A model generated the notes under the pieces. The model had not been told where the DNA came from and made no database searches. It saw only the letters and a program-made list of their open reading frames with translations. Source: Alphaproteobacteria bacterium bin98 (GTDB lineage: Bacteria > Pseudomonadota > Alphaproteobacteria > Bin98). From it: a stretch of 64,000 bases of DNA. How positions within the stretch are numbered: position 1 is the first letter of the stretch; each line of letters starts with the position of its first letter. Position numbers and translations under genes: made by a program. Positions 2,606 to 56,095 of the stretch are shown here, piece after piece. The DNA lies in assembly GCA_002238905.1 (NCBI GenBank), contig MPNG01000001.1, forward strand, positions 12,599 through 76,598, read 5' to 3'.

Positions 2606-3355
2606 TCAATCTATCTCCTCCATGTAATGAAATGTCAGAATAAATTTTCTCAAGCGTTCAGAAGCCCAAATTTGTCTCCCCATACAGAAGCCTTCTAAAG
2701 ATGATAATAAGTATAGACATGCAGCATTGTATTGTGTCTCTAATGCTATTCTGCGAGGAGATACTTGGTATTTACGAAATAATTGCTTATATTCTGAATC
2801 TCTTTCAAATTCAGAAAAAAGATAAAAGAAGAGTTCTAGATCAAGTTGTTGGGCAAATCGCAGCTGTATGAAAGTCTTAAGATCATCTGGCTCAATCAAA
2901 GGGTTGCGTGAGGATATTCTTGTAGCAGTAAGAGCTAGTATCTTTTCAGAAGTCAGTTGATGATGTTCGGTCAAAGACTGTTCCATAACAGCCTTTACTT
3001 GTTTTGAAAAATTATGTAACAAGGTAAATCGCAAAGAAGAATAATGTTCCCGCGACAAGGCGTTTTGTAAGGTGGATGCCAAAATTTCTTTTTGTGTCTC
3101 TAATAACTTTTGATCTCCCCACTCTTTTAGCGATGGGTCAGCATGCCTGCGACGCAAACACTTAGATAGTCGAGAAATAGAATTAGAAAAACAGTGCAGT
3201 AGTGTGCCCCAACAGCTATTATCACTCCAGTTATTATAACTTATGCAGAGTGTCTGTATGGGGGGGGATTTTTTGTCCTTACACCGATCATCGGCGTTTT
3301 CTAAAGCTCCATGGAGATGAAAGCAGAGCAAAAATAATAATATATATGTCATCAA
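2606..3355 (-). CDS. Secreted paralog-family protein (subfamily A, HHQLTSEKILALTATRI type)
   Basis: 249-aa ORF with leader MMTYILLFLLCFHLHGA and C-terminal YNAACLYLLSSLEGFCMG. There is an SD AAGGTG before the ATG. It is a paralog of 13441..14406. Confidence 0.7.
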   Translation of the reverse strand: MMTYILLFLLCFHLHGALENADDRCKDKKSPPIQTLCISYNNWSDNSCWGTLLHCFSNSISRLSKCLRRRHADPSLKEWGDQKLLETQKEILASTLQNALSREHYSSLRFTLLHNFSKQVKAVMEQSLTEHHQLTSEKILALTATRISSRNPLIEPDDLKTFIQLRFAQQLDLELFFYLFSEFERDSEYKQLFRKYQVSPRRIALETQYNAACLYLLSSLEGFCMGRQIWASERLRKFILTFHYMEEID

Positions 3356-3520
3356 TACACCTTATTTGTCAATACTAGATTACACGAGAATGAAATTAAA
3401 ACAAAGATCTCACTTACTCGCACTAAACAAAATCAATGCACCAAATGCTTTTTAAAAAGTTGATGTTTTTAGCAAAACAATCATTATTTAAAGCAATGAA
3501 GATAAATGTGAAGGTGAGAC

Positions 3521-3556
3521 ATTCAGAGGTGCCCCCTTAACCACTCACCTCTGAAT
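3521..3556 (-). terminator. Stem-loop downstream of 3596..4201 (possible terminator)
   Basis: An 11-bp perfect inverted repeat attcagaggtg / cacctctgaat with a 14-nt loop lies about 40 bp past the stop. It is followed on the minus strand by a moderately T-rich tract. It is duplicated at 4617..4652. Confidence 0.3.
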
Positions 3557-4451: not shown

Positions 4452-4690
4452 TACACCTTGTTTGTCGATACTATATTACACGCAAATGAAATTAAAACAA
4501 GGATCTCACTTACTCGCACTAAACAAAATCAATGCACCAAATGCTTTTTAAAAAGTTGATGTTTTTAGCAAAACAATCATTATTTAAAGCAATGAAGATA
4601 AATGGGAAGGTGAGACATTCAGAGGTGCCCCCTTAACCACTCACCTCTGAATATTCTTGCAAACTGTCGTGCCTCTCCAATTTTGAAATC
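4442..4690. repeat. Tandem segmental duplication. The spacer 3356..3600 is re-used upstream of the second subfamily-B gene.
   Basis: A near-identical roughly 245-bp block includes the stem-loop 4617..4652. The unit gene A + spacer + gene B is duplicated as pseudo-A + spacer + gene B'. Confidence 0.75.
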
Positions 4691-5288
4691 AATCCTTTTC
4701 TGTGGGAACGATTAGGCGATGCCAGGTTTGATAATAAGAAATAGCTACCTTATTACCATCACAGAAATTTAAACAAGATAGTAGAAGATTCTTATAAGCT
4801 TGTACATATTTTGCGTTCACAGCATCTGGATTCCCCTGATTACGGATATCGCTTATATCCAGCAGATATCTTTCTTCAGAAAAACACAAAGCTTGCATGA
4901 AGATTTCTGGACTAAGATGGAAGCGAGGACTTAGCATATTGATCGCTTGCTCTTTCACTCTGGAATAACTTATGTCAGGATGCTTTTCTGTCTGATACTC
5001 TAAAAGTATCGTCAGCAATGGGTCTGCAAAACCTTTTAATTCCTTAATGTTTTCCATTTGACTAATTGCTTGCGTCTGCAAGTGATCCGACACACGTTTT
5101 CTCCAGGGATTTTTGAAATTAGCTTGATTTAGTCTCCAACAAGAACACTGTAGAGCTTGTTCTAGAGGTGGTAGCTGACGCACTGCATCTAATCTTAGGC
5201 ATAATTCTTTTAACGCACTCTGACAACACGCATCCTCATCAGATCCATACACGTGCAAACAAAGGAAAAATAGTAGTATGAATTTCAT
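4689..5288 (-). CDS. Secreted paralog-family protein (subfamily B)
   Basis: 199 aa with leader MKFILLFFLCLHVYGS, an EKHPDIS motif and LLLSCLNFCDGNK. It is about 60% identical to 3596..4201. Confidence 0.7.
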   Translation of the reverse strand: MKFILLFFLCLHVYGSDEDACCQSALKELCLRLDAVRQLPPLEQALQCSCWRLNQANFKNPWRKRVSDHLQTQAISQMENIKELKGFADPLLTILLEYQTEKHPDISYSRVKEQAINMLSPRFHLSPEIFMQALCFSEERYLLDISDIRNQGNPDAVNAKYVQAYKNLLLSCLNFCDGNKVAISYYQTWHRLIVPTEKD

Positions 5289-12546: not shown

Positions 12547-13132
12547 TTACCGCTCACTCTCACGGACAGCCTGTTTTGTTTCTGTATGGCTATTTGGCAA
12601 AATGCGAACATTACATAAAAGTTTTAAGACCAAGTCGCCCAAAACCAAGCGTTCCGGCATGGATCTGGCAATGGATCCACCATTACAGAGAATCTTTAAA
12701 GAGACGAAGAGTTGTTGCAACACCTTTCGGGCTTCCCTTACTGCTGGATTATCTGCGTCAAAACTAGAGTATCTTATATACTGTAATTTTTCATATTCTT
12801 TCTGGATATCTAGACCATTTTCTTGAAGGCAGCAAGCTATATCTGGTTCAAGGCCGCACTCCCTATTTACTTTGCTAAAAACTTCCATCACCGCATCTCC
12901 ATACTGAAACAGTGTGCTCTTTGTCACAGGATTGTCTGTTTGTTTTTTGAAAGTCGCAATCGCACCTAAGAGCGTATCTTTGTACGGCAGGGTGGCTTGT
13001 TGAGCTGCTTCCCAATTTTTTAATTCTTCAGGACTCTGCATTAATTGCGGCACAGTTGCTTTTTGCGACGACTGCTTCTTTAGTGGCTCCGTGAGTGCAG
13101 GAAAAAATTAAAAATAATAATACGAACTTCAT
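12547..13132 (-). pseudogene. Subfamily-F family gene in which the leader peptide and the body lie in different frames (frameshift near 13040-13058)
   Basis: ATG at 13130-13132 encodes MKFVLLFLIFSCTHGATKEAVVAKSN, which stops at 13028. The body ORF 12547..13053 (…ELKNWEAAQQATLPYKDTLLGAIATFKK...) is in the +1 frame and has no Met or leader. Paralogs 18278..18844 and 35077..35577 are continuous here. Confidence 0.55.
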
Positions 13133-13440
13133 ATATCTACATCCTTTATATTACACTATCTATTAAATCACAGCATAATTTTGTGCTTTGCAAGACTCTA
13201 TTCTACCGGATTTTTCTCTATCTAACACACCTCCTTTTTCAGGGCATTGCAGTTTATTTTGTTGCTGGCACCCCTCTTTGCTTCTAAAATATTTTCTTCT
13301 ACCCATCCCCTCTCTATGAGCATGCACAGCCATGATGATTGATATAATGATCGATCATTCTCTATATTAAATCCTCTTATTATCTTATGCAATTTTTTGC
13401 ACAAGATGAAACAGCAATCACATGATTCAAGAGTCTTTTT

Positions 13441-42677: not shown

Positions 42678-43318
42678 TTAAACAAGCATAAAGATCAATT
42701 CGCTCAGCACAACATCACGAGCCTCGTATTCATACATGTGTGTGAGACGCCAAATATTATATTTTCGTTCAGCGACTTCCTTATTATCCGCACAGTAAGC
42801 TTGAAAAGCTGATAAGAGGAGCCAATACTGCTGCGTATATATTGGGTCTAGCGAAGAGAGATCTTTTTTATATCTTGCCTCTAAGAGTAGTGAGTGACCC
42901 CTCTCTCTCAATACTAAAAAAGCATAACAAAAGATCTTTGCATCAAGCTCAAAGTACACATCTAGGAGATTTTTCTCATAATTCACATCACCTGCTCTGA
43001 AGACATCCCTTTTTCAGAAGGCATCAAGTACATTTTCTATTTGCTCTGAGAAAGCCATTAATTCTTTAAGATTCCTTATATCAAAAAAATTTTGAGGGTT
43101 TAATATATCTTGACAGGTTTTCCTGCAGGTGAAACATTCTTGATTTTTTGCCACCTAATAGTGCGCATAGCTTGCTCCTGGATTATAATCCGTTCACTAA
43201 TTTTCTTGAGTCTGAGAAGATCAGCAGAATTCTCTAACGATATTGCGTCATCTGCTTCATGCGCCAGTGAATAGATTAAAAATAGTAAGATTAATTTGAT
43301 AAATGCATTTCATAGAGA
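42678..43318 (-). pseudogene. Decayed tandem copy of 43379..44029 (subfamily K)
   Basis: The C-terminal ORF 42678..42986 (…ERKYNIWRLTHMYEYE) has an upstream remnant MKCIYQINLTIFNLFTGA*. DNA 43060-43320 aligns to 43760-44020 with stops. Confidence 0.6.
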
Positions 43319-43378: not shown

Positions 43379-44029
43379 TTAGATTAGCTCCATGTTCTGC
43401 TGCATCACAAAATCACGAACCTTGTGTTCCTGTAGGTGTGTGAGACGCCAAATATTATATTTTCGTTCAGCGACTTCCTTATTATCATCAGAGTAAGCTT
43501 GAAAAGCTGATAAGAGGAGATGATACTGCTCCGCATATATTGGGTCTAGCGAGCAATCTTGCCTCAACATTATATAGCTTGCCTCTAATAATACTGCGCC
43601 ACACTTCTTTCTCAATACTAGAAAAGCATCATAGAAGGTCTTTGCATCAAGCTCAAAGAGCACATCTAAGAACTTTTGTGAAGAACCCACCTCCCCTGTT
43701 CTGAATATATTATTGCTTTTGCAGAAGGTGTCAAGCTTATTTTCTATGCGCTCTGAGAAAGCCATTAATGTTTCAAGATTGCTTATATCAAGAAAATTGT
43801 AAGGATTTAATATATCTTGACAGGCTTGCCTGCAAGTGAAACATTTTTGATTTTCTTTCCAGCGAACACAGCGCATATCTTGCCTCTCGATAGGCAAACA
43901 GCACTTGATTTCCCTTATTCTTTGAAAATCAGCATAATTCTCCAAATCGATTTCGGCACCTGCTCCATGCGCCAGTGAATAGATTAAAAATAATAAGATT
44001 AATGTCATGCTCATAAATGTACCTTTCAT
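43379..44029 (-). CDS. Secreted paralog-family protein (subfamily K, ERKYNIWRL type)
   Basis: 216 aa. The alternative start at 44014 gives leader MTLILLFLIYSLAHGAGAE. The C-terminus is LLLSAFQAYSDDNKEVAERKYNIWRLTHL. Confidence 0.7.
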   Translation of the reverse strand: MKGTFMSMTLILLFLIYSLAHGAGAEIDLENYADFQRIREIKCCLPIERQDMRCVRWKENQKCFTCRQACQDILNPYNFLDISNLETLMAFSERIENKLDTFCKSNNIFRTGEVGSSQKFLDVLFELDAKTFYDAFLVLRKKCGAVLLEASYIMLRQDCSLDPIYAEQYHLLLSAFQAYSDDNKEVAERKYNIWRLTHLQEHKVRDFVMQQNMELI

Positions 44030-44505: not shown

Positions 44506-45125
44506 CTAGGCATTATTAATCCACGTACTCTTCTTCCTTGAGCAAATCCTTAGTAACATTCCTTCGTGGAGGTGTATAAAACGACAAATATTAAACTTTC
44601 GTTCAGATTCATCTTGAATTTCTAAAGAGTAATTTCGAAGATCTGATAAGAGACTATGATACTCCTGAATGTATCTTAAGCCTTGCAGAGGAGGGCCGCT
44701 CTCGCATTGATATTCTCTCTCTAAGCATCGTAAATGCACATTTCCTCTCAAGAGTGAAAAAGCACAGAAGAAGGTTAATGCATTAAGTTCAAATCTCCTC
44801 TTTAGGGACTCTGACATATCAAAATACACAACATCCCAATCGCCTATTAGATCAATTTTGTGTCAGAATTCTGCAAGCATCATATTAAGAAAAACTGCAG
44901 GATCGAGATTCTTTTCAAAATATTCTCGGACAGAATCAAAACGTTGTTGATCTGAGGTCCAGTTAAAAGCGCGCATACCTCGCTCTTTAACTGTTAAACG
45001 AAGCAATGAATAAAACCTTTGTGCGTCAGCAACATCCTCAAGAGGATGGCTCTCTCTGAAAGACGGTTTGACATAAGTTAATGATGCTCCATGAGCTTTT
45101 GAATAGATAAAAATTAAAAAAACAA
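44506..45125 (-). pseudogene. Chimeric pseudogene. It joins a C-terminal fragment of a subfamily-K gene (44506..44829) to an N-terminal fragment of a 46140-type gene (44870..45125).
   Basis: 44506..44829 encodes ...ELNALTFFCAFSLLRG...ERKFNICRF. 44870-45320 is about 95% identical to 46187-46640, and a TGA separates the two parts. Confidence 0.55.
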
Positions 45126-45321
45126 TAACATAAATTTTTTTCTCAACATGAGCATTTTCAATGAAACCGTAATTAATATTATCACTTGAAAAAAATAATT
45201 TATAACGCTGACATGTCGAATATTATTATTTTTAATCTGTTTACATGCTCATGGCGCTAAAAAAGTTTTTGAACCAGATAGACTATATTAATCATCTTGA
45301 TGAATTAAGGGTCTTGGAAAC

Positions 45322-46050
45322 TCAGTGCGGCCCAGCTCTCCTCCGCATCACAGCATCACGAACATTAGGTCCCTCGAGGTATCTGAGACGCCAAATATTA
45401 TATTTTCGTTCAGCTTTTTCATGATTCTCCACACAGTAAGCTTCCATAGCTGATAAGAGGTCATGATACTGCTGGATGTATATTGGCGGAGACAAATATT
45501 GCTGAAATTCTGGCTGATCGTACAGACAGTAATTTTGAAAAGATAATAAGAGGTCGCGACACTCCGGCGTGTACGCTGAGTTTGACGGAGACAAATATTG
45601 CTGAGATAATTTTTTATATCTTTGCGCTGATAATACTGACGTAACATGGCCTCTCAACATTGCAAAAGCACAGAAGAAGCTGAATGCATTAAGCTCAAAG
45701 AGCTCATCTGTGACAATGTTCACAACAGACTTCATATCAGCATAAGCGATTAAATTATGGTGCTGGTTTTTCTTCAGAAGCTCTTCTAATTCCACTGAAA
45801 ATGCCATTAATTCTTCAAGATCGACCATCTCAATCCACTTCTGAGAATCGAGTATTTTTTTACAAGCTTCCCCGCAATTCCCAAAATGTTCTTGATTTTT
45901 TATCCTGTTGAGCTCCCGCACACCTTGCCTTTCTACTGACAGACGGTTGAGTGCAGTTATTCTTTGCGCATCAGCAAACTCCTCCAGAATGGTGGTGGGC
46001 TCTGCTCCATGCGCCAGTGAATAGATTAAAAATAATAAGATTAATGTCAT
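45322..46050 (-). CDS. Secreted paralog-family protein (subfamily K), copy 1 of the tandem pair
   Basis: The ORF is 45322..46098. The start at 46050 gives leader MTLILLFLIYSLAHGAEP. The C-terminus is LLSAMEAYCVENHEKAERKYNIWRLRYL. Confidence 0.7.
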   Translation of the reverse strand: MTLILLFLIYSLAHGAEPTTILEEFADAQRITALNRLSVERQGVRELNRIKNQEHFGNCGEACKKILDSQKWIEMVDLEELMAFSVELEELLKKNQHHNLIAYADMKSVVNIVTDELFELNAFSFFCAFAMLRGHVTSVLSAQRYKKLSQQYLSPSNSAYTPECRDLLLSFQNYCLYDQPEFQQYLSPPIYIQQYHDLLSAMEAYCVENHEKAERKYNIWRLRYLEGPNVRDAVMRRRAGPH

Positions 46051-46139
46051 GAATAAACCTCTAATACAAAGTTTATATCCTATTCTCAGCTTTATCAATG
46101 AAGAAATTTAAAAAAATGATTGTTCCCCTCATGTTCACA

Positions 46140-46499
46140 TCATACCAACATTGGTTGTGAGAATTCCATTAATTTTTTAATACACTTTATATTAAGAAAA
46201 ACTGCAGGATCGAGATTCTTTTCAAAATATTCTCGGACAGAATCAAAACGTTGTTGATCTGAGGTCCAGTTAAAAGCGCGCATACCTCGCTCTTTAACTG
46301 TTAAACGAAGCAATGAATAAACCCTTTGTGCGTCAGCAACATCCTCAAGAGGATGGCGCTCTCTGATAAAACGGTTTGACATGACATAAGTTAATGATGC
46401 TCCATGAGCTTTTGAATAGATAAAAATTAAAAAAAACAATAACATAAACTTTTTTCTCAACATGAGCATTTTCAATGAAACCGTAATCAATATTATCAC
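46140..46499 (-). pseudogene. N-terminal gene fragment (leader plus about 90 aa) lacking the C-terminal family domain
   Basis: MLLFFLIFIYSKAHGASLTYVMSNRFIRERHPLEDVADAQRVYSLLRLTVKERGMRAFNWTSDQQRF..., then a stop. The same fragment is present in the other repeat unit at 44870..45125. Confidence 0.45.
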
Positions 46500-46638
46500 T
46501 TGAAAAAAAATAATTTATAATGCTGACATGTCGTTAATATTATTATTTTTAATCTGTTTACATGCGCATGGAGCTAAAACAGTTTTTGAACCAGATAGAT
46601 TATATTAATCATCTTGATGAATTAAGGATCTTGGAAAC

Positions 46639-47367
46639 TCAGTACGGCGCTCTCTCCTTCACAGCAGCACAAACATTAGGTCCATTGAGGTATGTAAGAC
46701 GCCAAATATTATATTTTCGTTCAGCTTTTTCATGATTCCCCACACAGTAAGCTTCCATAGCTGATAAGAGGTCATGATACTGCTGGATGAGCATTTCTGG
46801 CGGAGACAAAGATTTCTTAGATTTTGGCCGCTCGTACAGACAGTAATTTTGAAAAGATAATAAGAGGTCGCGACACTCCGGCGTGTACACTGACTCTGAC
46901 GGAGACAAATATTGCAGAGATAATTTTTTATATCTTTGCGCTGATAATACTGACGTAACCTGGCCTCTCAACATTGCAAAAGCACAGAAGAATTTGAATA
47001 CATCAAGCTCAAAGTACTCATCTGTGACATTGATAACAACAGCCTTCATATCAGGACGAGTGATTAAATCAGTCTGCTGGTTTTGCTTCAGAAGCTCTTC
47101 TAATTCCACTGAAAATGCCATTAATTCTTCAAGATCGACCATCTCAATCCACTTCTGAGAATCGAGTATTTTTTTACAAGCTTCCCCGCAATTCCCAAAA
47201 TGTTCTTGATTTTTTATCCTGTTGAGCTCCCGCACACCTTGCCTTTCTCCTGACAGATGGTTGATTTCATTTATTCTTTGCGCATCAGCAAACTCCTCCA
47301 GAATGGTGGTGGGGGGCTCTGCTCCATGCGCCAGTGAATAGATTAAAAATAATAAGATTAATGTCAT
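46639..47367 (-). CDS. Secreted paralog-family protein (subfamily K), copy 2 of the tandem pair
   Basis: The ORF is 46639..47415. The start at 47367 gives leader MTLILLFLIYSLAHGAEPP. It is about 90% identical to 45322..46050. Confidence 0.7.
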   Translation of the reverse strand: MTLILLFLIYSLAHGAEPPTTILEEFADAQRINEINHLSGERQGVRELNRIKNQEHFGNCGEACKKILDSQKWIEMVDLEELMAFSVELEELLKQNQQTDLITRPDMKAVVINVTDEYFELDVFKFFCAFAMLRGQVTSVLSAQRYKKLSLQYLSPSESVYTPECRDLLLSFQNYCLYERPKSKKSLSPPEMLIQQYHDLLSAMEAYCVGNHEKAERKYNIWRLTYLNGPNVCAAVKERAPY

Positions 47368-47695
47368 GAATAAACCTCTAATACAAAGTTTATATCCTAT
47401 TCTCAGCTTTATCAACGAAGAAATTTAAAAAAATGATTGTTCCCCTCATGTTCACATCATACCAACAAAGGTAGTAAGCACTCGGAATTTGATATCTTAT
47501 AAGGGCTGTTGAAACAAAGCATGACAAGTTGCATTGTGAGACGTTGCGCAATCTAAGAAGTCATAATAGAGAAATCTTAAAAAAAAGCGTGTGAGAATAT
47601 TGACAGATTCATATTATGTGAATGAGTTGTGTTGGTCCAAATTTGCTCTGCAAACACCATTTTTTCGTGCAAAGTACAATGATATAATACAAAAG

Positions 47696-50600
47696 ATGAT
47701 CACACCTGAAAACAATCGCCCTTTTTTTATCCATCTGCGCATGTCATCCTCTTACTCCTTAGCACAAAGCGCCATTAGCATTCAATCTGCTATTCATTAT
47801 GCAAAAGATCATAATATTCCAGCGTTGGCGATCACAGATGCGCAAAATCTTTTTGGAGCTTTTGAATTTTCATTAAAATGCTTAGAGCATGGCGTGCAGC
47901 CTATTTTAGGAGCCACCATAGAAATTTTCATGAGTGAGACAGAAGAAAACGCGCAGCTTCTGTTGTTGGCACAATCTGAAGAAGGTTTCAAAAACATCTC
48001 TTCTTTGGTGAGTCAATATCATCTGACAAATACACCCTGCTCTTGGGAGGATTTGCGCGCAAAAAATACTGGTGTCATCTGTCTTTCTGGTGGCATACAT
48101 GGCCCAATAGGTCGTCATATATTGGCCAATGATACCGACCAAGCCCTTCGTGTTGCAAAAAAAACTAAAAATATCTTTCAAGACAGATTTTATTTAGAGA
48201 TTATGCGCCATCACCGCGAAGAAGAAGTGAAAACAGAAGAGATATTTTTAAAAATTGCTATAGATGAGCATATTCCTATTGTGGCAACTAATGAGTGTTT
48301 TTACACACAAAAAAATATGTTTGATGCACATAATGTTCTTTTATGTTTAAATGCAGGTGCTTATATTCACTCAGCAGATAGACCACACAGCAATCCATAC
48401 TTTTATTTACGAACTCCACAAGAAATGGCCGAGCTGTTCTTGGATCTACCTGAAGCCCTTGCTAACACTGTCCATATTGCACAAAGATGTCACTTTTACT
48501 TAACACCTATGAAGCCAGAGCTTCCTCACTTCCCTAAAGTGGGTGATGAAACCGAAAACGCTATGATTATGCGTGTTGCTAAGCAAGGGTTAGCAACACA
48601 CATCAAGAATCATAGAGTGTGTGAGCATATTGCCCAAAATATTTACGAAGAGCGCATTGATTATGAGCTTGAGGTTATTACAAAAATGGACTTTTCTGGC
48701 TATTTCCTTATTATGTCGGATATTATTTTATGGGCCAAAAACCAAGGCATACCCGTTGGCCCAGGCCGTGGTTCAGCAGCAGGATCTCTTGTCGCATGGA
48801 CCATGGGTATTACCAATGTGGATTCGTTAGCATTTGATCTTCCTTTTGAGAGATTTTTGAATCCTGACCGTATTTCTATGCCAGATTTTGATGTAGATTT
48901 TTGTCAAGAGCGGCGTGAAGAAGTGATACATTATGTGCGTGATCTCTACGGAGAAGACTGCGTTGCACAAATAATTACCTTTGGAACATTGCAGGCGCGT
49001 GGTGTACTCCGAGATGTAGGTCGTGTTTACCAGCTTCCTTATATGCAAGTTGATAATTTGTGTAAGCGCATTCCTAACCAGCCCGGTCAACACGTCTCCC
49101 TTGCGGAAGCCCTTAAAGATGATCCTATTTTGCAAGATGAATTTGATAATAAGCCTGAAATAAAAAAGGTTTTTGAAATAGCTATGCAACTAGAAGGTTT
49201 GCATAGGCACGCCTCAACACATGCCGCTGGTGTTATCATCTCTAGTCGCCCAATTGCTGATATCATTCCTATTTATAAAGACGCCAATACAGATCTGCAA
49301 GTCACACAATATACAATGAAGTATGTTGAATTTGCAAGCTTAATCAAATTTGATTTTTTGGGCCTCAAAACACTTTCTGTATTAGCAAAAACAACAGAAC
49401 TTTTGAGCAACGATGGATATGATTTTAATCTTGATAGTTTAGATTTTAACGATGAACAAACATTTTCCCTTCTTGGCACAGGTATTACAGGTGGAGTTTT
49501 TCAAATGGAAGGCTCAGGCATGCAAGAACTGTTACGCCAAGCAAAGCCTGATTGTTTTGACGACATTATCGCCATTGTGGCACTTTACAGGCCTGGCCCT
49601 ATGGAAAACATTCCTAGTTTTTTGGCACGTAAACAAGGAAAAGAAAAGGTAGTCTACCTTCACCCTCTCTTAGAAGACATTTTAAAAGAAAGCTACGGCA
49701 TTCCCATTTATCAAGAACAGGTTATGCGCATTGCTCAAAAATTGGCGGGGTATTCAATGGGTGAAGCAGATTTGTTGCGTAGAGCTATGGGCAAAAAGAT
49801 TCCTAAAGAAATGGCAGCTCAAAAAAAGAGATTTCTAGATGGTTCTTCCAGAAACAATGTTTCTTTAGAGATTGCGGAAACTTTATTTGAGCAAATTGCA
49901 CGCTTTGCTGGGTATGCCTTTAATAAATGCCACGCTACATGCTACGCCTTTATTGCCTACCAAACAGCGTACATGAAGTCCCATCACCTCCCCTATTTTA
50001 TGGCTGCCTCTTTAAGCTTTGATATTAATAATGCCGCCAAAATATGGGAGCACAGCAAGAGTCTTTCTGTCTTAGGAAGCGACCTTTTGCCACCAGACAT
50101 TAACGCTTCAGATGTATGGTTTTCTGTTCAAAAATCAGGAGATAAAAAGTGTGTGAGGTTTGCATTAAGTGCTATTAAAAATGTAGGATCTCATATGGCA
50201 GAAACTATAGTAGAGGAAAGAAAAAAGAAGCGCTTTTCTTATCCTTCCGAGTGTTTTCAAAGGCTGCTTATGGCTGGTGTTAGCAAGCGCACTATTGAAC
50301 AATTAATGAAGGCAGGAGCTCTTGACTCTATAGAAAGAAATCGTGCTCTCTTGGAGTATATTTTCTCTGACACAAAAGAATGGATGCCGGATGGCAAAAA
50401 AATAGCAGATGACCAGCCTTCCTTCTTTGCTGAAGATTCTGTGAGCATCGTTGAAGACAATCGGCCTTCACTCATCCACAAAGGCATTGTGGATAAAGGA
50501 TTGCCTCAAAAAGCAGAAGATGAAAAACAAACTCTTGGTATTTATGTACAGTATCACCCTTTGGCGCCTTATAAAAAAATCATTAAAACCATGAATTTAT

Positions 50601-51109
50601 TGAGTATTGAAGGCGCTTATGGATTGTCAGACAAAGCGATGAGTTGTTCAATTATTGCCATTGTGAGCTCTATTACTGCTAGAAAAACGCAAGATGGGCG
50701 ATCATTCTCTATTCTTGAAATTGCGGATGAAAAAGCAACCATGAGCTTATTTCTTTTTAATAAAGAGCTGGAAAAAGTTTCTGCCTATAGCGCGGGCGAT
50801 ATTGTTGTGCTTCGCTGCTCAATTCGCAAATCGGATCGTGGAAGACGTTTTAATCTCGTGGACATACATGGAACAGAGGCGCTGTTGGCGGATATGAAAC
50901 GCCAAAATATTATCATTAATATTAATGCTTTTGTTAATATTCAAAAGTTGCTTGATATGATACAAGCCGCTCTTTTTGAAGGCGGCCCTCACACAATAAC
51001 AATTTGCTTGGAGGGTACGGTGGATTTGCCTCTTAAGCAAACATTTCTTTTCACAAATTATGTGTTGATGGAAATGGCAAAAATTGCTAATATTCAACGC
51101 AAAACGTAA
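47696..51109 (+). CDS. dnaE: DNA polymerase III subunit alpha (DnaE)
   Basis: The ORF is 47591..51109. The conserved start at 47696 gives MITPENNRPFFIHLRMSSSYSLAQSA (PHP domain). Polymerase motifs are PDFDVDFCQERREEVIHYV and LIKFDFLGLKTLSVL. It is about 1137 aa, typical for DnaE. Confidence 0.95.
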   Translation: MITPENNRPFFIHLRMSSSYSLAQSAISIQSAIHYAKDHNIPALAITDAQNLFGAFEFSLKCLEHGVQPILGATIEIFMSETEENAQLLLLAQSEEGFKNISSLVSQYHLTNTPCSWEDLRAKNTGVICLSGGIHGPIGRHILANDTDQALRVAKKTKNIFQDRFYLEIMRHHREEEVKTEEIFLKIAIDEHIPIVATNECFYTQKNMFDAHNVLLCLNAGAYIHSADRPHSNPYFYLRTPQEMAELFLDLPEALANTVHIAQRCHFYLTPMKPELPHFPKVGDETENAMIMRVAKQGLATHIKNHRVCEHIAQNIYEERIDYELEVITKMDFSGYFLIMSDIILWAKNQGIPVGPGRGSAAGSLVAWTMGITNVDSLAFDLPFERFLNPDRISMPDFDVDFCQERREEVIHYVRDLYGEDCVAQIITFGTLQARGVLRDVGRVYQLPYMQVDNLCKRIPNQPGQHVSLAEALKDDPILQDEFDNKPEIKKVFEIAMQLEGLHRHASTHAAGVIISSRPIADIIPIYKDANTDLQVTQYTMKYVEFASLIKFDFLGLKTLSVLAKTTELLSNDGYDFNLDSLDFNDEQTFSLLGTGITGGVFQMEGSGMQELLRQAKPDCFDDIIAIVALYRPGPMENIPSFLARKQGKEKVVYLHPLLEDILKESYGIPIYQEQVMRIAQKLAGYSMGEADLLRRAMGKKIPKEMAAQKKRFLDGSSRNNVSLEIAETLFEQIARFAGYAFNKCHATCYAFIAYQTAYMKSHHLPYFMAASLSFDINNAAKIWEHSKSLSVLGSDLLPPDINASDVWFSVQKSGDKKCVRFALSAIKNVGSHMAETIVEERKKKRFSYPSECFQRLLMAGVSKRTIEQLMKAGALDSIERNRALLEYIFSDTKEWMPDGKKIADDQPSFFAEDSVSIVEDNRPSLIHKGIVDKGLPQKAEDEKQTLGIYVQYHPLAPYKKIIKTMNLLSIEGAYGLSDKAMSCSIIAIVSSITARKTQDGRSFSILEIADEKATMSLFLFNKELEKVSAYSAGDIVVLRCSIRKSDRGRRFNLVDIHGTEALLADMKRQNIIININAFVNIQKLLDMIQAALFEGGPHTITICLEGTVDLPLKQTFLFTNYVLMEMAKIANIQRKT

Positions 51110-51240: not shown

Positions 51241-52446
51241 ATGCATCATCGTCAATTTGTCATCTGGTCTGGATGGTTAGTAGTATCACTTTTTTATGCG
51301 TATCAATACATTTTACGCGTACTTCCTAACATTATTTTGCCATTTCTGACAGAGCGTTATGCCATGGACGGAGTGCTCTTTGGACAATTTTCAGGCTTAT
51401 ACTACACAGGTTATGCGCTTGCGCATGTTCCTTTAGGTATCCTATTGGATCGATTTGGTGTTAAAAAAGTTCTTCCCCTTAGTTTTGCATTAACATTTTT
51501 AGGTATTTTACCCATTATTTATGGAAGTACCTGGCATTATCCCGCCATTGGACGATTGATCACGGGCATTGGCTCATCAGCAGCTATATTGGGTGCATTT
51601 CAATATATACGTCTCGTTTTTTCTGAGGGACGATTTACGCGCGTTTTGAGCATGACTGTTACCGTTGGTTTGATGGGTGCCATTTATGGAGGACAGCCCA
51701 CACAATATCTTTGCGATACTTACGGCGTGTATACTGTTATACACTTTTTAGTTGTTGTTGGATGTTTACTTTCTCTGGCAGCATATATCATTATGCCTAC
51801 CTCTAAAAAAGAACATCAAAAAAAGATTGGTTTTAAAGAAATTTTCCAAATCCTGACAAACACACGTACCTTATTGCTCGCCATTGCTTCTGGCTTTATG
51901 GTAGGCGCATTAGAAGGGTTTCCAGACGCTTGGGGTGTGGCTTTTTTAACAAAAGTGCACAACGTTACCGCCAAAGATGCCGCACAATTAACATCCTTTA
52001 TCTTTTTCGGCATGTGTTTTGGCGGCCCTCTTTTAAGCTACATTGCTGACAGCACAAAGCGTTATGTAGAAACCATTATTGGGGCTGGATTGGTGATGAC
52101 AGCATTGTTCTTTATTATTTTATTTTGCTCAGTGCCCGTGAGCTTGCTTTACATATTCTTCGTCATTATTGGTATCTCTTGCGCTTACCAAATCCCTGCT
52201 ATTTATCAAGCATCAACATATGTTGAAAAACAATTCACTGGCCTTGCCACCGCTCTCGTCAATATGGTGATTATGGGGTTTGGACACTTGCTTCACTCAA
52301 CAATTGGTGCAACAGTGAACTCTTATGGAGGGATTGACTCTGTATCTGGTTTGCACGCCGGCGTCTTAACGGTACCGATCACTTGTGTAATGGGTGTTAT
52401 GCTGCTTTTGTTGTTTAGAAAGTCTCTAGAAAAAGGTGGCTCATGA
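51241..52446 (+). CDS. MFS-type transporter, paralog 1 of 3 in tandem
   Basis: 401 aa with 12 predicted TM segments. The conserved N-terminus is FYAYQYILRVLPNI...GQFSGLYYTGYALAHVPLGILLDRFGVKK (an MFS loop 2-3 like motif). The substrate is unknown. Confidence 0.85.
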   Translation: MHHRQFVIWSGWLVVSLFYAYQYILRVLPNIILPFLTERYAMDGVLFGQFSGLYYTGYALAHVPLGILLDRFGVKKVLPLSFALTFLGILPIIYGSTWHYPAIGRLITGIGSSAAILGAFQYIRLVFSEGRFTRVLSMTVTVGLMGAIYGGQPTQYLCDTYGVYTVIHFLVVVGCLLSLAAYIIMPTSKKEHQKKIGFKEIFQILTNTRTLLLAIASGFMVGALEGFPDAWGVAFLTKVHNVTAKDAAQLTSFIFFGMCFGGPLLSYIADSTKRYVETIIGAGLVMTALFFIILFCSVPVSLLYIFFVIIGISCAYQIPAIYQASTYVEKQFTGLATALVNMVIMGFGHLLHSTIGATVNSYGGIDSVSGLHAGVLTVPITCVMGVMLLLLFRKSLEKGGS

Positions 52447-53648
52447 GCAATAGATTAAAAGGATTACCTCTTTGGATCAGTTGGCTATTTGCCACCGCTT
52501 TTTATGCGTATCAATACATATTACGTGTACTTCCTAATATAATGTATGAACCTATTGTCAAAAAATTTTCGATTGATGCTCATATTTTTGGTCAATTTTC
52601 TGGCGTTTACTATACAGGGTACGCCTTGGCTCATATTCCTCTAGGTATTCTATTGGATCGATTTGGTGTCAGAAAAACACTCCCACCTATGATTATTATT
52701 TCTGTATGTGGGCTTCTTCCTATTCTGTATTCAGATTTATGGCTATATCCTGTCATTGGAAGATACCTCACAGGTATTGGTTCAGCAGCAGCCCCTCTTG
52801 CAGCTTTTTATATTATTAGAATTGGATTTTCTGAATCCCAAGGCCCACGTATGCTGAGCTGGTTTGTGACCTTTGGTTTACTAGGCGCCATTTATGGAGG
52901 CACTCCCACCACTTATTTTTGTCAAAAATTTGGATATGAATCTGTTCTGAAAAGCACCATTGTTTTTGGATTTTTTATGGCTTTTATTGGCTTTTTGTAC
53001 CTACCAAAAGAAGAGAGCAAAAAAAGAAAATATGCTGCGTTGCAAGGAATATGGAAAATTCTTAAAAACAAAAAAACCATTATTATTGCCTTATCTTCTG
53101 GCTTAATGGTTGGTTCATTAGAGGGATTTCCAGATGCATGGGGAGGCATTTTTCTTACGAAAGTCTACGGTCTTGATCTAAATCTAAGTGCGCACTTAAC
53201 TTCCTTAATTTTTCTAGGCATGTGTTTTGGCGGCCCATGTTTAGCTTTTATTGCCGAATATCTGAAAAAACCTATTATGACAGTCATTTTAGCAGGATGC
53301 GTTATGACAATAACATTTTGTTCAATTCTTTTATTCACCCTATCAACAATCTTGTTAAATGTTATGTTTGTGTGTGTTGGCATTTGTTGTGCCTATCAAA
53401 TGATAGCTATATACAAAGCAGCGTCTTATGTAGACCCTAACTCCGCCACCTTAGCGACAGCTATTGTTAATATGATTATTATGATTTTTGGTCATATCCT
53501 ACACACCAGCATTGGTGCGGTCGTAGCATATAACGGAGGCATGCAAAGTATCTGGGGCTTACAAATGGGCATAAGCGTTATACCTATGTTCTGCCTAATG
53601 GGTGTTGTAGTGTTAGCCTATAACTATAAAAGATTGAGGAAGGATTAA
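52443..53648 (+). CDS. MFS-type transporter, paralog 2 of 3
   Basis: 401 aa. Its start overlaps the upstream stop (ATGA) and has an AAGGTGG SD. It is about 50% identical to paralogs 1 and 3. Confidence 0.85.
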   Translation: MSNRLKGLPLWISWLFATAFYAYQYILRVLPNIMYEPIVKKFSIDAHIFGQFSGVYYTGYALAHIPLGILLDRFGVRKTLPPMIIISVCGLLPILYSDLWLYPVIGRYLTGIGSAAAPLAAFYIIRIGFSESQGPRMLSWFVTFGLLGAIYGGTPTTYFCQKFGYESVLKSTIVFGFFMAFIGFLYLPKEESKKRKYAALQGIWKILKNKKTIIIALSSGLMVGSLEGFPDAWGGIFLTKVYGLDLNLSAHLTSLIFLGMCFGGPCLAFIAEYLKKPIMTVILAGCVMTITFCSILLFTLSTILLNVMFVCVGICCAYQMIAIYKAASYVDPNSATLATAIVNMIIMIFGHILHTSIGAVVAYNGGMQSIWGLQMGISVIPMFCLMGVVVLAYNYKRLRKD

Positions 53649-53650
53649 AT

Positions 53651-54856
53651 ATGATGTCTGTAAGCTTAGCGATGTGGCGCAATTGGTCATTTATCACACT
53701 GTTTTATGCCTACCAATATATAGTGCGCGTATTACCCAATATTATCTACAAACCTATTGTAGAAACCTTTGGCATTAATGCTACTATTTTTGGACAATTT
53801 TCAGGCATTTATTATATAGGATACGCATTAGCACACATACCTGTAAGCCTATTGTTTGATCGATTTGGATTGAAAAAAGTTCTACCACTAACGCTTTTAT
53901 TAATGGTGGGAGGGCTTTTGCCTATTATTTATACAGAATCATGGATTTACCCTGTATTTGGAAGATTTTTAACCGGCATTGGCTCTGCCTCCGTAACGCT
54001 GGCGGCTTTTCACATTATTCGTGTAGGATTTCCCGTGGCAAAACATCCTATGATGCTAAGTTTAACAATAGCATTGGGATTGGTTGGGGCTGTTTATGGA
54101 GGAAGGCCTACAGCTTACCTTTGCGACCAACTTGGACATGTAGCCGTTATTCAGATTTTGGTTGCGGTAGGCAGTATTATTTCTGTAATTTCTTATATTT
54201 CACTTCCTAAGGAAAAAAATCGTTTAAAAGATGTGCAAATTTTGAAAGGCCTTAAGCATGTTTTTTGTAACAAAAACACCATGTGGATGTCTCTTACAGC
54301 GGGTTTAATGATTGGATCACTTGAAGGTTTTCCAGATGCTTGGGGCGTTATGTTTTTTACAAAAGTATACGGACTTCAGTTTGATTACTCCGCCCAATTA
54401 ACCTCTCTTATATTTTTAGGTTTAGGAGTTGGCGGCCCATTGGTTAGCTACGCAGCAGAAAAAACTGGAAAAGCCCTTTGGTTTATTATCATCGCAGGCA
54501 TTTGTATGGCTGTTCCCTTTTTATTCTTTTTGGGAATGCAGCTTTCTGACACAATGCTGATCGTTTCATTGATTACTATTGGAGTGGGATGCTCTTATCA
54601 AATGCTCTCTATTTACCATGCCTCTTACTTTGTGGAAAAAAAATATGCCACTATTTCTACAGCAGTGGTGAATATGATTTTGATGGGGTTTGGACATTTA
54701 CTACACAGCGCAATTGGATGCACCGTCAATATTTCAGGCGGATTGGATAATGTGCAAGCCTTGAAAAATGGCCTTTATGTTGTTCCATTAGCCAGCCTTT
54801 TGGGTGCTATTATTTTAATTATTCGCAGAAAATATTTTCAAAACCTCAAATCCTGA
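53651..54856 (+). CDS. MFS-type transporter, paralog 3 of 3
   Basis: 401 aa. It has a GAGGAAGGA SD and the same architecture. Its 3' end is duplicated at 57119..57379. Confidence 0.85.
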   Translation: MMSVSLAMWRNWSFITLFYAYQYIVRVLPNIIYKPIVETFGINATIFGQFSGIYYIGYALAHIPVSLLFDRFGLKKVLPLTLLLMVGGLLPIIYTESWIYPVFGRFLTGIGSASVTLAAFHIIRVGFPVAKHPMMLSLTIALGLVGAVYGGRPTAYLCDQLGHVAVIQILVAVGSIISVISYISLPKEKNRLKDVQILKGLKHVFCNKNTMWMSLTAGLMIGSLEGFPDAWGVMFFTKVYGLQFDYSAQLTSLIFLGLGVGGPLVSYAAEKTGKALWFIIIAGICMAVPFLFFLGMQLSDTMLIVSLITIGVGCSYQMLSIYHASYFVEKKYATISTAVVNMILMGFGHLLHSAIGCTVNISGGLDNVQALKNGLYVVPLASLLGAIILIIRRKYFQNLKS

Positions 54857-55528: not shown

Positions 55529-56095
55529 ATGATATTAATATTATTATTTTCAATCGCTTTAAATATTTATGGATCTGCTCGTACCATATACTACTCTCTA
55601 ACAAACTTAACAAATTCTGGGTTATCCAAACAAGTGATGTAAGACAGTTTGTCGGTTAAAGAAGTTGAGATACCGCGTAAACTATTTGTAGAATCTTGGC
55701 AAGAAGCAAAAGAATTTTCTGAATGTGTTGTGGTATATGAAAACATAAAACTAGCTCATACACAAACGTGTAAAAATCTAGATGCAATGCGTGAACTCAA
55801 TGAAAAAAATCCGAGACCAGAGACTCAAAGCGAGTTCATGCTATATTGCGACGTAGTGGAATCACTTCCAGAAACAACACGCCAACTAGAAGAAGCAGTA
55901 GTAGAGTTAGCAAAATCATCTAAAATCGCGAAAAGACAAAAGGAAGAAAAGAAGAAAAAAATACAATCTCAACATGCGGCATTAGACACAAATGAAGGAG
56001 TTTTGAAACTACTTGAAGATAGGGGAACGGTTGAAAAGCTTTGGCAATCATTGGAGGGACGTGCTAAAGTAGCGCAAAAGAAAACAATATACTAA
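55529..56095 (+). pseudogene. Family-like gene interrupted by a single in-frame TAA after the leader
   Basis: ATG at 55529 encodes MILILLFSIALNIYGSARTIYYSLTNLTNSGLSKQVM, then TAA at 55640-55642. This is in frame with ORF 55649..56095, which has no Met or leader of its own (the ORF track starts it at TTG). Confidence 0.5.

What the first reader, a model, noticed from the sequence alone, without database searches (positions are those of the whole stretch)
12547..13132. Leader peptide and mature domain in different reading frames (frameshifted family gene)
The canonical leader MKFVLLFLIFSCTHGATKEAVVAKSN is encoded from 13132 but terminates at 13028. The conserved body (paralogous to 18278 and 35077) is in the +1 frame and lacks any Met or leader. 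The junction sits in gcaaaaagcaactgtgcc next to an A5 run. This is either fresh pseudogenisation or a slippage-controlled on/off switch.
Basis: seen in the sequence. Interest (0 to 1): 0.5.

Follow-up and report, generated by a model that had tools for sequence, protein, structure and literature searches.

The report
Young frameshift pseudogene, secreted-protein family
One copy of a large family of small secreted proteins, found only in an uncultured sponge-associated bacterium, has a real one-base frameshift that cuts its export signal off from the rest of the protein; this is ordinary recent gene decay, not a genetic switch.

Summary
A 34-codon ORF (13132..13028, minus strand) encodes the family's signal peptide and ends at TGA. 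The 168-codon body (13053..12547) is open in the +1 frame.

The frameshift is not an assembly error. Ten metagenome contigs from JGI, ENA and Logan assemblies are 100% identical across it. All traceable samples are from the sponge Aplysina aerophoba.

The gene has no orthologue and no intact allele in about 5.8 billion protein clusters. Its only relatives are two paralogues in the same window. All three belong to an orphan, all-helical superfamily with about 40 members in this window.

The extra base can only be placed within 13084..13031. The A5 run is a plausible site but is unremarkable, because A/T runs of 5 or more occur about once per 99 nt.

Nothing supports a switch or programmed frameshift. 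The tract is short and invariant, the next codon is common, there is no stimulator or RNA structure, and 221 similar in-frame sites sit in intact genes.

Other family members in the window are visibly decaying, one through a T8-to-T7 change. Paralogue 35077 carries an old, compensated frameshift.

Best reading: a young pseudogene or split gene in a birth-and-death family. Interest is low.

The parts
13028..13132 (-). Leader ORF: 34 codons plus TGA. It encodes the family signal peptide MKFVLLFLIFSCTHGA, then 18 further residues, then the stop.
   Evidence: The leader matches the leaders of about 35 other genes in the window.
13142..13146 (-). Shine-Dalgarno-like AAGGA, 9 nt upstream of the leader ATG. 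The leader ORF keeps its translation signal.
   Evidence: upstream sequence agtgtaatataaaggatgtagatat ATG. Similar motifs lie upstream of several intact family genes.
13031..13084 (-). Interval in which the one extra base (or a 2-nt loss) must lie. It runs from just after the in-frame HGA motif to just before the leader-frame stop. This linker is variable and unalignable.
13060..13064 (-). A5 run (gcAAAAAgc), the most plausible but unproven site of the 1-nt insertion. Removing one A gives a continuous 194-aa ORF.
   Evidence: reconstruction. (runs of this length are common).
13102..13107 (-). T6 run inside the leader. The same tract is T5 in paralogue 35077.
12547..13053 (-). Body ORF of 168 codons in the +1 frame (GTG 13053, ATG 13041, TAA 12549..12547). 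It carries the family motifs NWxxAQ, PYKDTLL, AIATF and LFVSLKILCNG.
   Evidence: The AlphaFold2 model is all-helical with mean pLDDT 70.
18278..18844 (-). Intact paralogue with leader and body in one frame, 188 aa.
35077..35577 (-). Intact paralogue, 166 aa. The end of its leader is read in a shifted frame (T5 instead of T6), which marks an old compensated frameshift.

Best explanation
This is a real one-base frameshift, fixed in all available assemblies, in one member of a lineage-specific, tandemly expanded family of small all-helical secreted proteins. The organism is an uncultured, low-GC alphaproteobacterium from the sponge Aplysina aerophoba.

The lesion lies in the unconstrained linker between the signal peptide and the mature domain, most simply as A4 to A5. 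Ribosomes that start at the Shine-Dalgarno-preceded ATG at 13132 make only a 34-residue peptide. The mature domain is no longer joined to an export signal.

The gene is therefore a very young pseudogene or split gene, one step in the birth-and-death turnover of this family. Shown: the frameshift, its constancy across assemblies, the paralogy, the absence of an intact allele, and decay of sibling genes by the same kind of mutation. Inferred: loss of function, the exact base affected, and that the leader is a Sec signal.
For: The frame split was read directly.

Ten contigs from JGI, ENA and Logan assemblies are 100% identical over 950 nt that include the junction. Their flanks are 99.96 to 100% identical to the window.

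The only proteins found in 5.8e9 clusters are the body itself (164 and 168 aa forms) and the two window paralogues, even when the query was the reconstructed full-length protein. A full HMMER scan of 1.84e9 representatives gave no further relative of this trio.

Deleting one A restores a 194-aa protein that is collinear with the paralogues.

The trio belongs to the window's superfamily (hhalign probability 97.2%, E 3.6e-11).

Sibling genes are in later stages of decay:
- 43300->42699 has a frameshift and stops.
- 45182->44548 has a frameshift and a stop. Its T-run is T7 where its paralogue has T8.
- 55529->56095 has an in-frame TAA between leader and body.
- 45220 and 46534 are leader-only remnants.

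A 513-bp deletion allele that removes the 5' part of another member is present in three contigs.
Against: There is only one lesion, and every conserved family residue of the body is intact, so loss of function is inferred rather than shown.

The body has its own ATG (13041), 12 nt upstream of the leader ORF's stop, so some leaderless protein could still be made by reinitiation.

All available sequences are nearly clonal, and several come from one sponge specimen. Fixation is therefore known only for this sampled population and only from consensus sequences.

No expression data were available.
Confidence: 0.75

Rival explanations
1. Leaderless expression. The frameshift uncoupled the mature domain from export, and the body is still translated from ATG 13041 (or GTG 13053) as a cytoplasmic 164 to 168 aa protein. 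Translation might begin by termination-reinitiation after the 34-codon leader ORF, whose TGA lies 12 nt downstream of that ATG.
For: The body ORF and all its conserved motifs are intact. The start and stop are close together. Gene callers and NCBI annotate the body as a CDS. A second member (55529/55649) also has its leader cut from an intact body, there by a TAA.
Against: No Shine-Dalgarno-like sequence precedes either start. A domain that evolved to work outside the cell has no evident cytoplasmic role. An intact body is equally expected of a very recent pseudogene. There are no expression data.
Confidence: 0.12
2. Phase-variable contingency locus. Slipped-strand mispairing at the A5 run (or the T6 run) switches the gene between ON (A4) and OFF (A5).
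For: Losing one A restores a full ORF. Homopolymer length changes do occur in this family (T8/T7; T6/T5). Two other members carry rare C8 and C7 tracts just after their leaders.
Against: From established knowledge, contingency tracts are usually 7 or more nt. This one is 5 nt. It is identical in all 10 contigs examined and no ON-form protein exists in public data. There are 644 A/T runs of 5 or more in the window, and intact genes carry runs of 7 to 9. The T8/T7 and T6/T5 differences are between old paralogues, not between alleles.
Confidence: 0.05
3. Programmed or tolerated +1 recoding. tRNA-Lys slips from AAA to the overlapping AAA at GCA-AAA-AGC, or RNA polymerase slips on the A run, so that some full-length secreted protein is made.
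For: A-AAA-A allows perfect re-pairing in the +1 frame, and the product would be the reconstructed 194-aa protein.
Against: The following codon, AGC, is common (11 per 1000) and is not a stop. No Shine-Dalgarno-like stimulator lies upstream. AAA followed by an A-starting codon occurs in frame 221 times in intact genes of the window, 7 of them AAA-AGC. There is no Rfam match. The junction RNA is less structured than shuffled controls (z = +2.1). From established knowledge of endosymbiont poly(A) tracts, useful transcriptional slippage needs about 9 or more A residues.
Confidence: 0.05
4. Sequencing or assembly artefact. The true genome has one continuous ORF.
For: None found.
Against: The sequence is identical in 10 contigs from separate libraries and three assembly pipelines. 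An independent NCBI MAG encodes the same body as a 168-aa protein starting at GTG 13053. Short A5 runs are not prone to Illumina errors (established knowledge).
Confidence: 0.01

Closest known systems
Frameshift pseudogenes and split genes in expanded paralogous families of host-associated bacteria (for example Rickettsia split genes and Borrelia plasmid paralogous families; from established knowledge)
   Same: A single indel separates the N-terminal part from the rest of a family member. Intact paralogues sit nearby, and siblings show graded stages of decay. The family is lineage-specific and tandemly arranged.
   Different: The family here is an orphan with no Pfam, PDB or fold match. The organism is an uncharacterised sponge-associated alphaproteobacterium. 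The lesion is so recent that no second defect exists.
Homopolymer-tract phase variation (contingency loci of Neisseria, Haemophilus, Campylobacter)
   Same: A mononucleotide run sits near the 5' end of a gene for a secreted protein, and a change of one base would toggle the frame.
   Different: The tract is only 5 nt. No length polymorphism was seen in any assembly, and such runs are common throughout the genome.
prfB (RF2) type programmed +1 ribosomal frameshift
   Same: A +1 shift is needed, and a P-site codon can re-pair in the +1 frame.
   Different: There is no in-frame stop or rare codon at the site, no upstream Shine-Dalgarno-like stimulator, and no conservation to test.
Phytoplasma SVM (sequence-variable mosaic) proteins, which have a conserved signal peptide on divergent mature regions (recalled from memory as an analogy for the family, not for the frameshift)
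   Same: A near-identical N-terminal signal peptide, conserved even at the DNA level, is joined to rapidly diverging small mature domains in many tandem genes.
   Different: Pfam reported no family above threshold for any of the 26 proteins scanned, so the SVM signal family did not match either. The host lineage is different. Here the mature domains still share detectable motifs (WxxxQ and LLxSxxxFC).

Membership tests
Window's leader-bearing secreted-protein superfamily (orphan) | N-terminal leader of the type M-x-LILLFLxC/S-x-H/Y-G-A | tested here: met
   MKFVLLFLIFSCTHGA is encoded at 13132..13085. tblastn hits the leaders of other members.
Window's leader-bearing secreted-protein superfamily (orphan) | Mature-domain motifs WxxxQ and C-terminal LLxSxxxFC, and profile similarity | tested here: met
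   NWEAAQQ and LFVSLKILCNG are present. hhalign of the trio against an 18-member alignment gives probability 97.2%, E 3.6e-11. Part of that score comes from the leader.
Window's leader-bearing secreted-protein superfamily (orphan) | Leader and mature domain in one reading frame | tested here: not met
   The body is in the +1 frame relative to the leader. This is the defect under study.
Phase-variable contingency locus | Long simple repeat (homopolymer usually 7 or more nt) in or just upstream of the ORF | tested here: not met
   The longest runs in the junction zone are A5 (13060-13064) and T6 (13102-13107).
Phase-variable contingency locus | Tract-length polymorphism among cells, strains or samples | tested here: not met
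   Ten contigs are identical and no ON-form protein exists in the databases. Only consensus sequences were examined; read-level data are not available with these tools.
Phase-variable contingency locus | An alternative tract length restores the full ORF | tested here: met
   A4 gives a 194-aa leader-plus-body protein.
Programmed +1 ribosomal frameshift (prfB type) | Slippery P-site codon followed by a stop or slowly decoded codon | tested here: not met
   AAA-AGC: AGC is used at 11 per 1000 codons. The leader-frame stop lies 11 codons downstream at UCC-UGA, where re-pairing is poor.
Programmed +1 ribosomal frameshift (prfB type) | Upstream Shine-Dalgarno-like stimulator or other RNA element | tested here: not met
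   The upstream sequence GAAGCAGUCGUCGCA has no Shine-Dalgarno-like motif. There is no Rfam hit and folding is weaker than shuffles.
Programmed +1 ribosomal frameshift (prfB type) | Conservation of the two-frame layout in orthologues | not testable with these tools
   No orthologue exists in any searched collection.
Transcriptional-slippage rescue at poly(A) tracts (endosymbionts) | Poly(A) or poly(T) tract of about 9 or more nt at the frameshift | tested here: not met
   The run is A5 only.
Frameshift pseudogene | Reading frame disrupted relative to intact homologues | tested here: met
   The paralogues 18278-18844 and 35077-35577 are continuous. tblastn splits this locus into two frames.
Frameshift pseudogene | Loss of expression or function, or relaxed constraint | not testable with these tools
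   All copies are 100% identical, so dN/dS cannot be computed. No transcript or protein data were available.

The most novel reading that the evidence does not exclude
The locus may be an intermediate in 'frameshift and compensate' evolution rather than a dead gene. Paralogue 35077 shows that a 1-nt homopolymer change at the leader/mature junction can be survived. There the canonical FSCVHGAT is still encoded but out of frame, and the new frame supplies another HGA. The family may therefore use short homopolymer indels in the unconstrained linker to remodel, silence and occasionally revive members. That would be a slow, mutation-rate switch operating over evolutionary time.
Probability: 0.12. 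Interest if true: 0.4.

Novelty: new member of a known kind. Interest (0 to 1): 0.15.

Why it matters
The frameshift itself matters little. It is one more young pseudogene in a fast-evolving gene family. Its value is as a marker of the family's dynamics. About 40 tandem genes share a near-identical export signal, have no relatives outside this lineage, and are being duplicated, deleted, frameshifted and sometimes repaired within one sponge-associated bacterial population. That pattern is expected for host-interaction or surface proteins under diversifying pressure, and the family deserves study more than this single broken copy does. For annotation, the 164/168-aa 'hypothetical protein' in public records should be flagged as the 3' part of a frameshifted gene.

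Tried and rejected
- Scans of genome contigs and metagenome contigs with the body protein found nothing. An exact-pattern scan that allowed A4 to A7 at the junction also found nothing. Those collections do not appear to hold this organism, so they could not test for alternative alleles.
- A DnaE scan gave at most 50% identity, almost all to assorted Alphaproteobacteria among the best matches, so no close genome is available for synteny.
- Pfam returned nothing above threshold. A PDB sequence profile search found nothing. A Foldseek search of the AlphaFold2 model against PDB gave no hit with E below 1. The fold and function of the family remain unknown.
- I tried to place the lesion using the shared 'VAKS' in paralogue 18278. 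I rejected this because the Ser codons differ (AGC against TCA) and the best DNA alignment does not pair the two segments.
- I considered UGA recoding. I rejected it because TGA ends 17 of 43 ORFs and reading through gives non-homologous sequence.
- I considered a lipoprotein signal. I rejected it because the residue before the conserved Cys is usually bulky, and several members lack the Cys altogether (reading).
- Literature searches for the MAG, the sample accessions or the family found only the source of the SRA runs.
- The final homology search, with the family profile, added nothing.

Full report
**Observation.** On the minus strand, an ATG at 13132 is preceded by a Shine-Dalgarno-like AAGGA (13146..13142). 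It opens MKFVLLFLIFSCTHGATKEAVVAKSNCAAINAES and stops at TGA 13030..13028. The +1 frame is open from 13107 to TAA 12549..12547. From GTG 13053 it reads VPQLMQSPEELKNWEAAQQATLPYKDTLL...RESER, 168 codons.

The body matches two genes in the window, 18278-18844 (E 3.5e-15) and 35077-35577 (E 3e-11). The leader matches the leaders of those genes and of some 35 others. The other two frames of the region have 13 stops each. From that rate I estimate that 168 open codons have a chance probability of about 1e-5.

Two details of the finding are wrong. First, the body does contain start codons, GTG 13053 and ATG 13041, and public gene calls use both. Second, the junction cannot be assigned to the A5 run. 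Both frames are open over 13107..13031. The in-frame family motif FSCTHGA limits the lesion only to 13084..13031. The linker there does not align with the paralogues at either protein or DNA level. A/T runs of 5 or more occur 644 times in the window, about one per 99 nt, so finding one in this interval is unremarkable.

**Not an artefact.** The body protein exists in public data only as itself: P0001 (164 aa, recorded as seen on 8 contigs) and P0002 (168 aa, MCY4413626.1, 'MAG: Alphaproteobacteria bacterium', locus OXC30_01370). A look-up found 20 contigs that encode it. The 10 retrieved come from JGI, ENA and Logan assemblies. They are 100% identical to the window over the 950 nt tested, which include the junction (871 nt for the shortest contig). 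Their flanks are 99.96 to 100% identical to the window.

The SRA runs are Aplysina aerophoba metagenomes, and several come from tissue layers of one specimen. The libraries are therefore technically independent but only partly biologically independent. The population is not strictly clonal: three contigs share a 513-bp deletion (window 3013-3525) that removes the 5' part of another family gene, while 14 contigs carry the intact form.

**No intact allele and no orthologue.** Deleting one A from the A5 run gives a continuous 194-aa protein that is collinear with the paralogues. A search with an alignment headed by this reconstruction found only P0001 and the two paralogues (P0003, P0004) among 5.8e9 clusters. 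A full HMMER profile scan of 1.84e9 representatives found 51 family members, but none closer to this gene than the two paralogues. Scans of GTDB genomes and JGI metagenome contigs were empty. DnaE from the window is at most 50% identical to any GTDB representative, and nearly all of the best matches are Alphaproteobacteria. The suggested check, 'look for the same indel in related strains', therefore cannot go beyond this one population, where the indel is fixed in every consensus sequence.

**What the gene is.** The trio shares the leader, a linker of variable length, NWxxAQxxxxPYKxxxLxAIxTF, and LxxLFxSLxxLCxG. Profile comparison with 18 other leader-bearing proteins of the window gives probability 97.2%, E 3.6e-11. 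It aligns the leader, the WxxxQ motif and the LLxSxxxFC motif. By BLASTP, 27 of the 44 ORFs compared form one cluster.

Members found outside the window all carry the same leader. There is no Pfam, PDB-sequence or PDB-fold match. The AlphaFold2 model of the body is all-helical with mean pLDDT 70. I read the leader as a Sec-type signal peptide on the basis of its n-, h- and c-regions. No signal-peptide predictor was available, so this is an inference.

**Why decay and not a switch.**
- The tract is 5 nt and invariant.
- AGC, the codon after AAA, is common at 11 per 1000 codons. AAA followed by an A-starting codon occurs in frame 221 times in the intact genes of the window, 7 of them AAA-AGC. 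TGA is an ordinary stop.
- No Shine-Dalgarno-like stimulator precedes the site. There is no Rfam match. The junction RNA folds less well than shuffled controls, z = +2.1.
- Siblings are visibly decaying:
  - 43300->42699 is split across two frames and has stops.
  - 45182->44548 is split in the leader and has an in-frame stop. Its T-run is T7 where its 97%-identical neighbour has T8.
  - 55529->55642 is a leader ended by an in-frame TAA just before an intact body at 55649..56095.
  - 45220 and 46534 are leader-only remnants.

Homopolymer indels are therefore a demonstrated way in which members of this family are lost.

**A twist.** Paralogue 35077 has T5 where this gene and 18278 have T6. With T6 it would encode the canonical FSCVHGAT. 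As it stands it reads FPAFMEQLHGAEGG and continues in frame into the body. That is an old frameshift at the same junction that was compensated. A broken member is therefore not necessarily lost for good. This is the basis of the 'novel case', which I rate as unlikely for this locus.

**Remaining alternative.** ATG 13041 lies 12 nt upstream of the leader ORF's stop, so termination-reinitiation could yield some leaderless protein. No Shine-Dalgarno-like sequence supports this, and I have no expression data.

**Verdict.** This is a real 1-nt frameshift, fixed in every available consensus sequence, that makes a very young pseudogene or split gene in an orphan, rapidly turning-over family of secreted proteins in a sponge-associated alphaproteobacterium. 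Confidence is 0.75. The finding itself is ordinary. The family around it is the more interesting object.

Noticed in passing
window 1-64000, e.g. 1196-1774, 2606-3355, 4689-5288, 27992-28684, 43379-44029, 62722-63555: About 40 genes in the window, mostly on the minus strand, share a near-identical N-terminal leader (M-x-LILLFLxCLHxHGA) and the motifs WxxxQ and LLxSxxxFC. A HMMER scan of 1.84e9 representatives finds only 51 clusters, all with the same leader. There is no Pfam, PDB or fold match. This is an orphan, lineage-specific secreted-protein superfamily.
   Followed up: partly
window 3013-3525; loci L091, L092, L093: Three contigs (JGI 3300027328, Logan SRR6214543, ENA ERZ27241797) share one junction that deletes 513 bp, removing the promoter and the first 343 nt of family gene 2606..3355. 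Fourteen other contigs carry the intact gene. This appears to be a structural polymorphism in the symbiont population.
   Followed up: partly
window 3260-3267, 36923-36929, 23196-23203, 28000-28006: These G/C homopolymers are rare for a 37% GC genome. C8 on the coding strand lies just after the leader of gene 2606..3355, and C7 just after the leader of gene 36864..38510. C8 is intergenic at 23196, and C7 sits at the 3' end of 27992..28684. The first two have the anatomy of phase-variable tracts. Only in-frame versions could be retrieved, so length variation is untested.
   Followed up: partly
window 35500-35577 (minus strand): Paralogue 35077 encodes the canonical leader end FSCVHGAT out of frame, because its T-run is T5 rather than T6. 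The used frame reads FPAFMEQLHGAEGG and continues into the body. This is an old frameshift at the leader/mature junction that was compensated.
   Followed up: yes
window 44548-45182 versus 46140-46510 (minus strand): The 5' regions of these tandem copies are 97% identical. The 45182 copy has T7 where the 46499 copy has T8, which shifts its frame inside the leader. It also has an in-frame stop further on. The 46499 copy is itself truncated at 119 aa.
   Followed up: yes
window 55529-56095 (plus strand): This is another leader separated from an intact body, here by an in-frame TAA at 55640-55642. The sequence reads MILILLFSIALNIYGS...QVM*, followed by DSLSVKEVEIPRKLFVESWQEAKEF....
   Followed up: partly
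window 42699-43300 (minus strand): This is a decayed copy of gene 43379..44029. It has no start codon before the leader, a frameshift near residue 59 and an internal stop. The C-terminal part is 63% identical to the intact neighbour.
   Followed up: yes
window 45322-46098 and 46639-47415 (minus strand): These are recent tandem duplicates, 84% identical at the protein level. Each is followed by the same set of leader remnants on the opposite strand (45220, 46534). The whole segment is a repeat unit of about 1.3 kb.
   Followed up: no
protein P0005 (not in window): This is a 1581-aa protein with the family leader and nine tandem matches to the family domain profile. P0033 (816 aa) has 13 matches. 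The small domain therefore also occurs in long multi-repeat proteins.
   Followed up: no
window 47591-51109 and the whole window: DnaE is at most 50% identical to any of 185,579 GTDB species representatives, and nearly all of the best matches are Alphaproteobacteria. The window's GC is 34-41% (about 37% on average). All traceable samples are the Mediterranean sponge Aplysina aerophoba. The organism is a deep-branching, undescribed lineage.
   Followed up: partly
window 51241-54856 (plus strand): Three consecutive 401-aa ORFs have similar N-termini (…AYQYILRVLPNI…). They look like a tandem triplication of a membrane transporter gene and were not analysed further.
   Followed up: no
window 36477-36553 (minus strand): A lone tRNA-Ile(GAT) lies between an rlmH-like ORF (35802-36260) and a family gene. 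It is the only tRNA in 64 kb.
   Followed up: no
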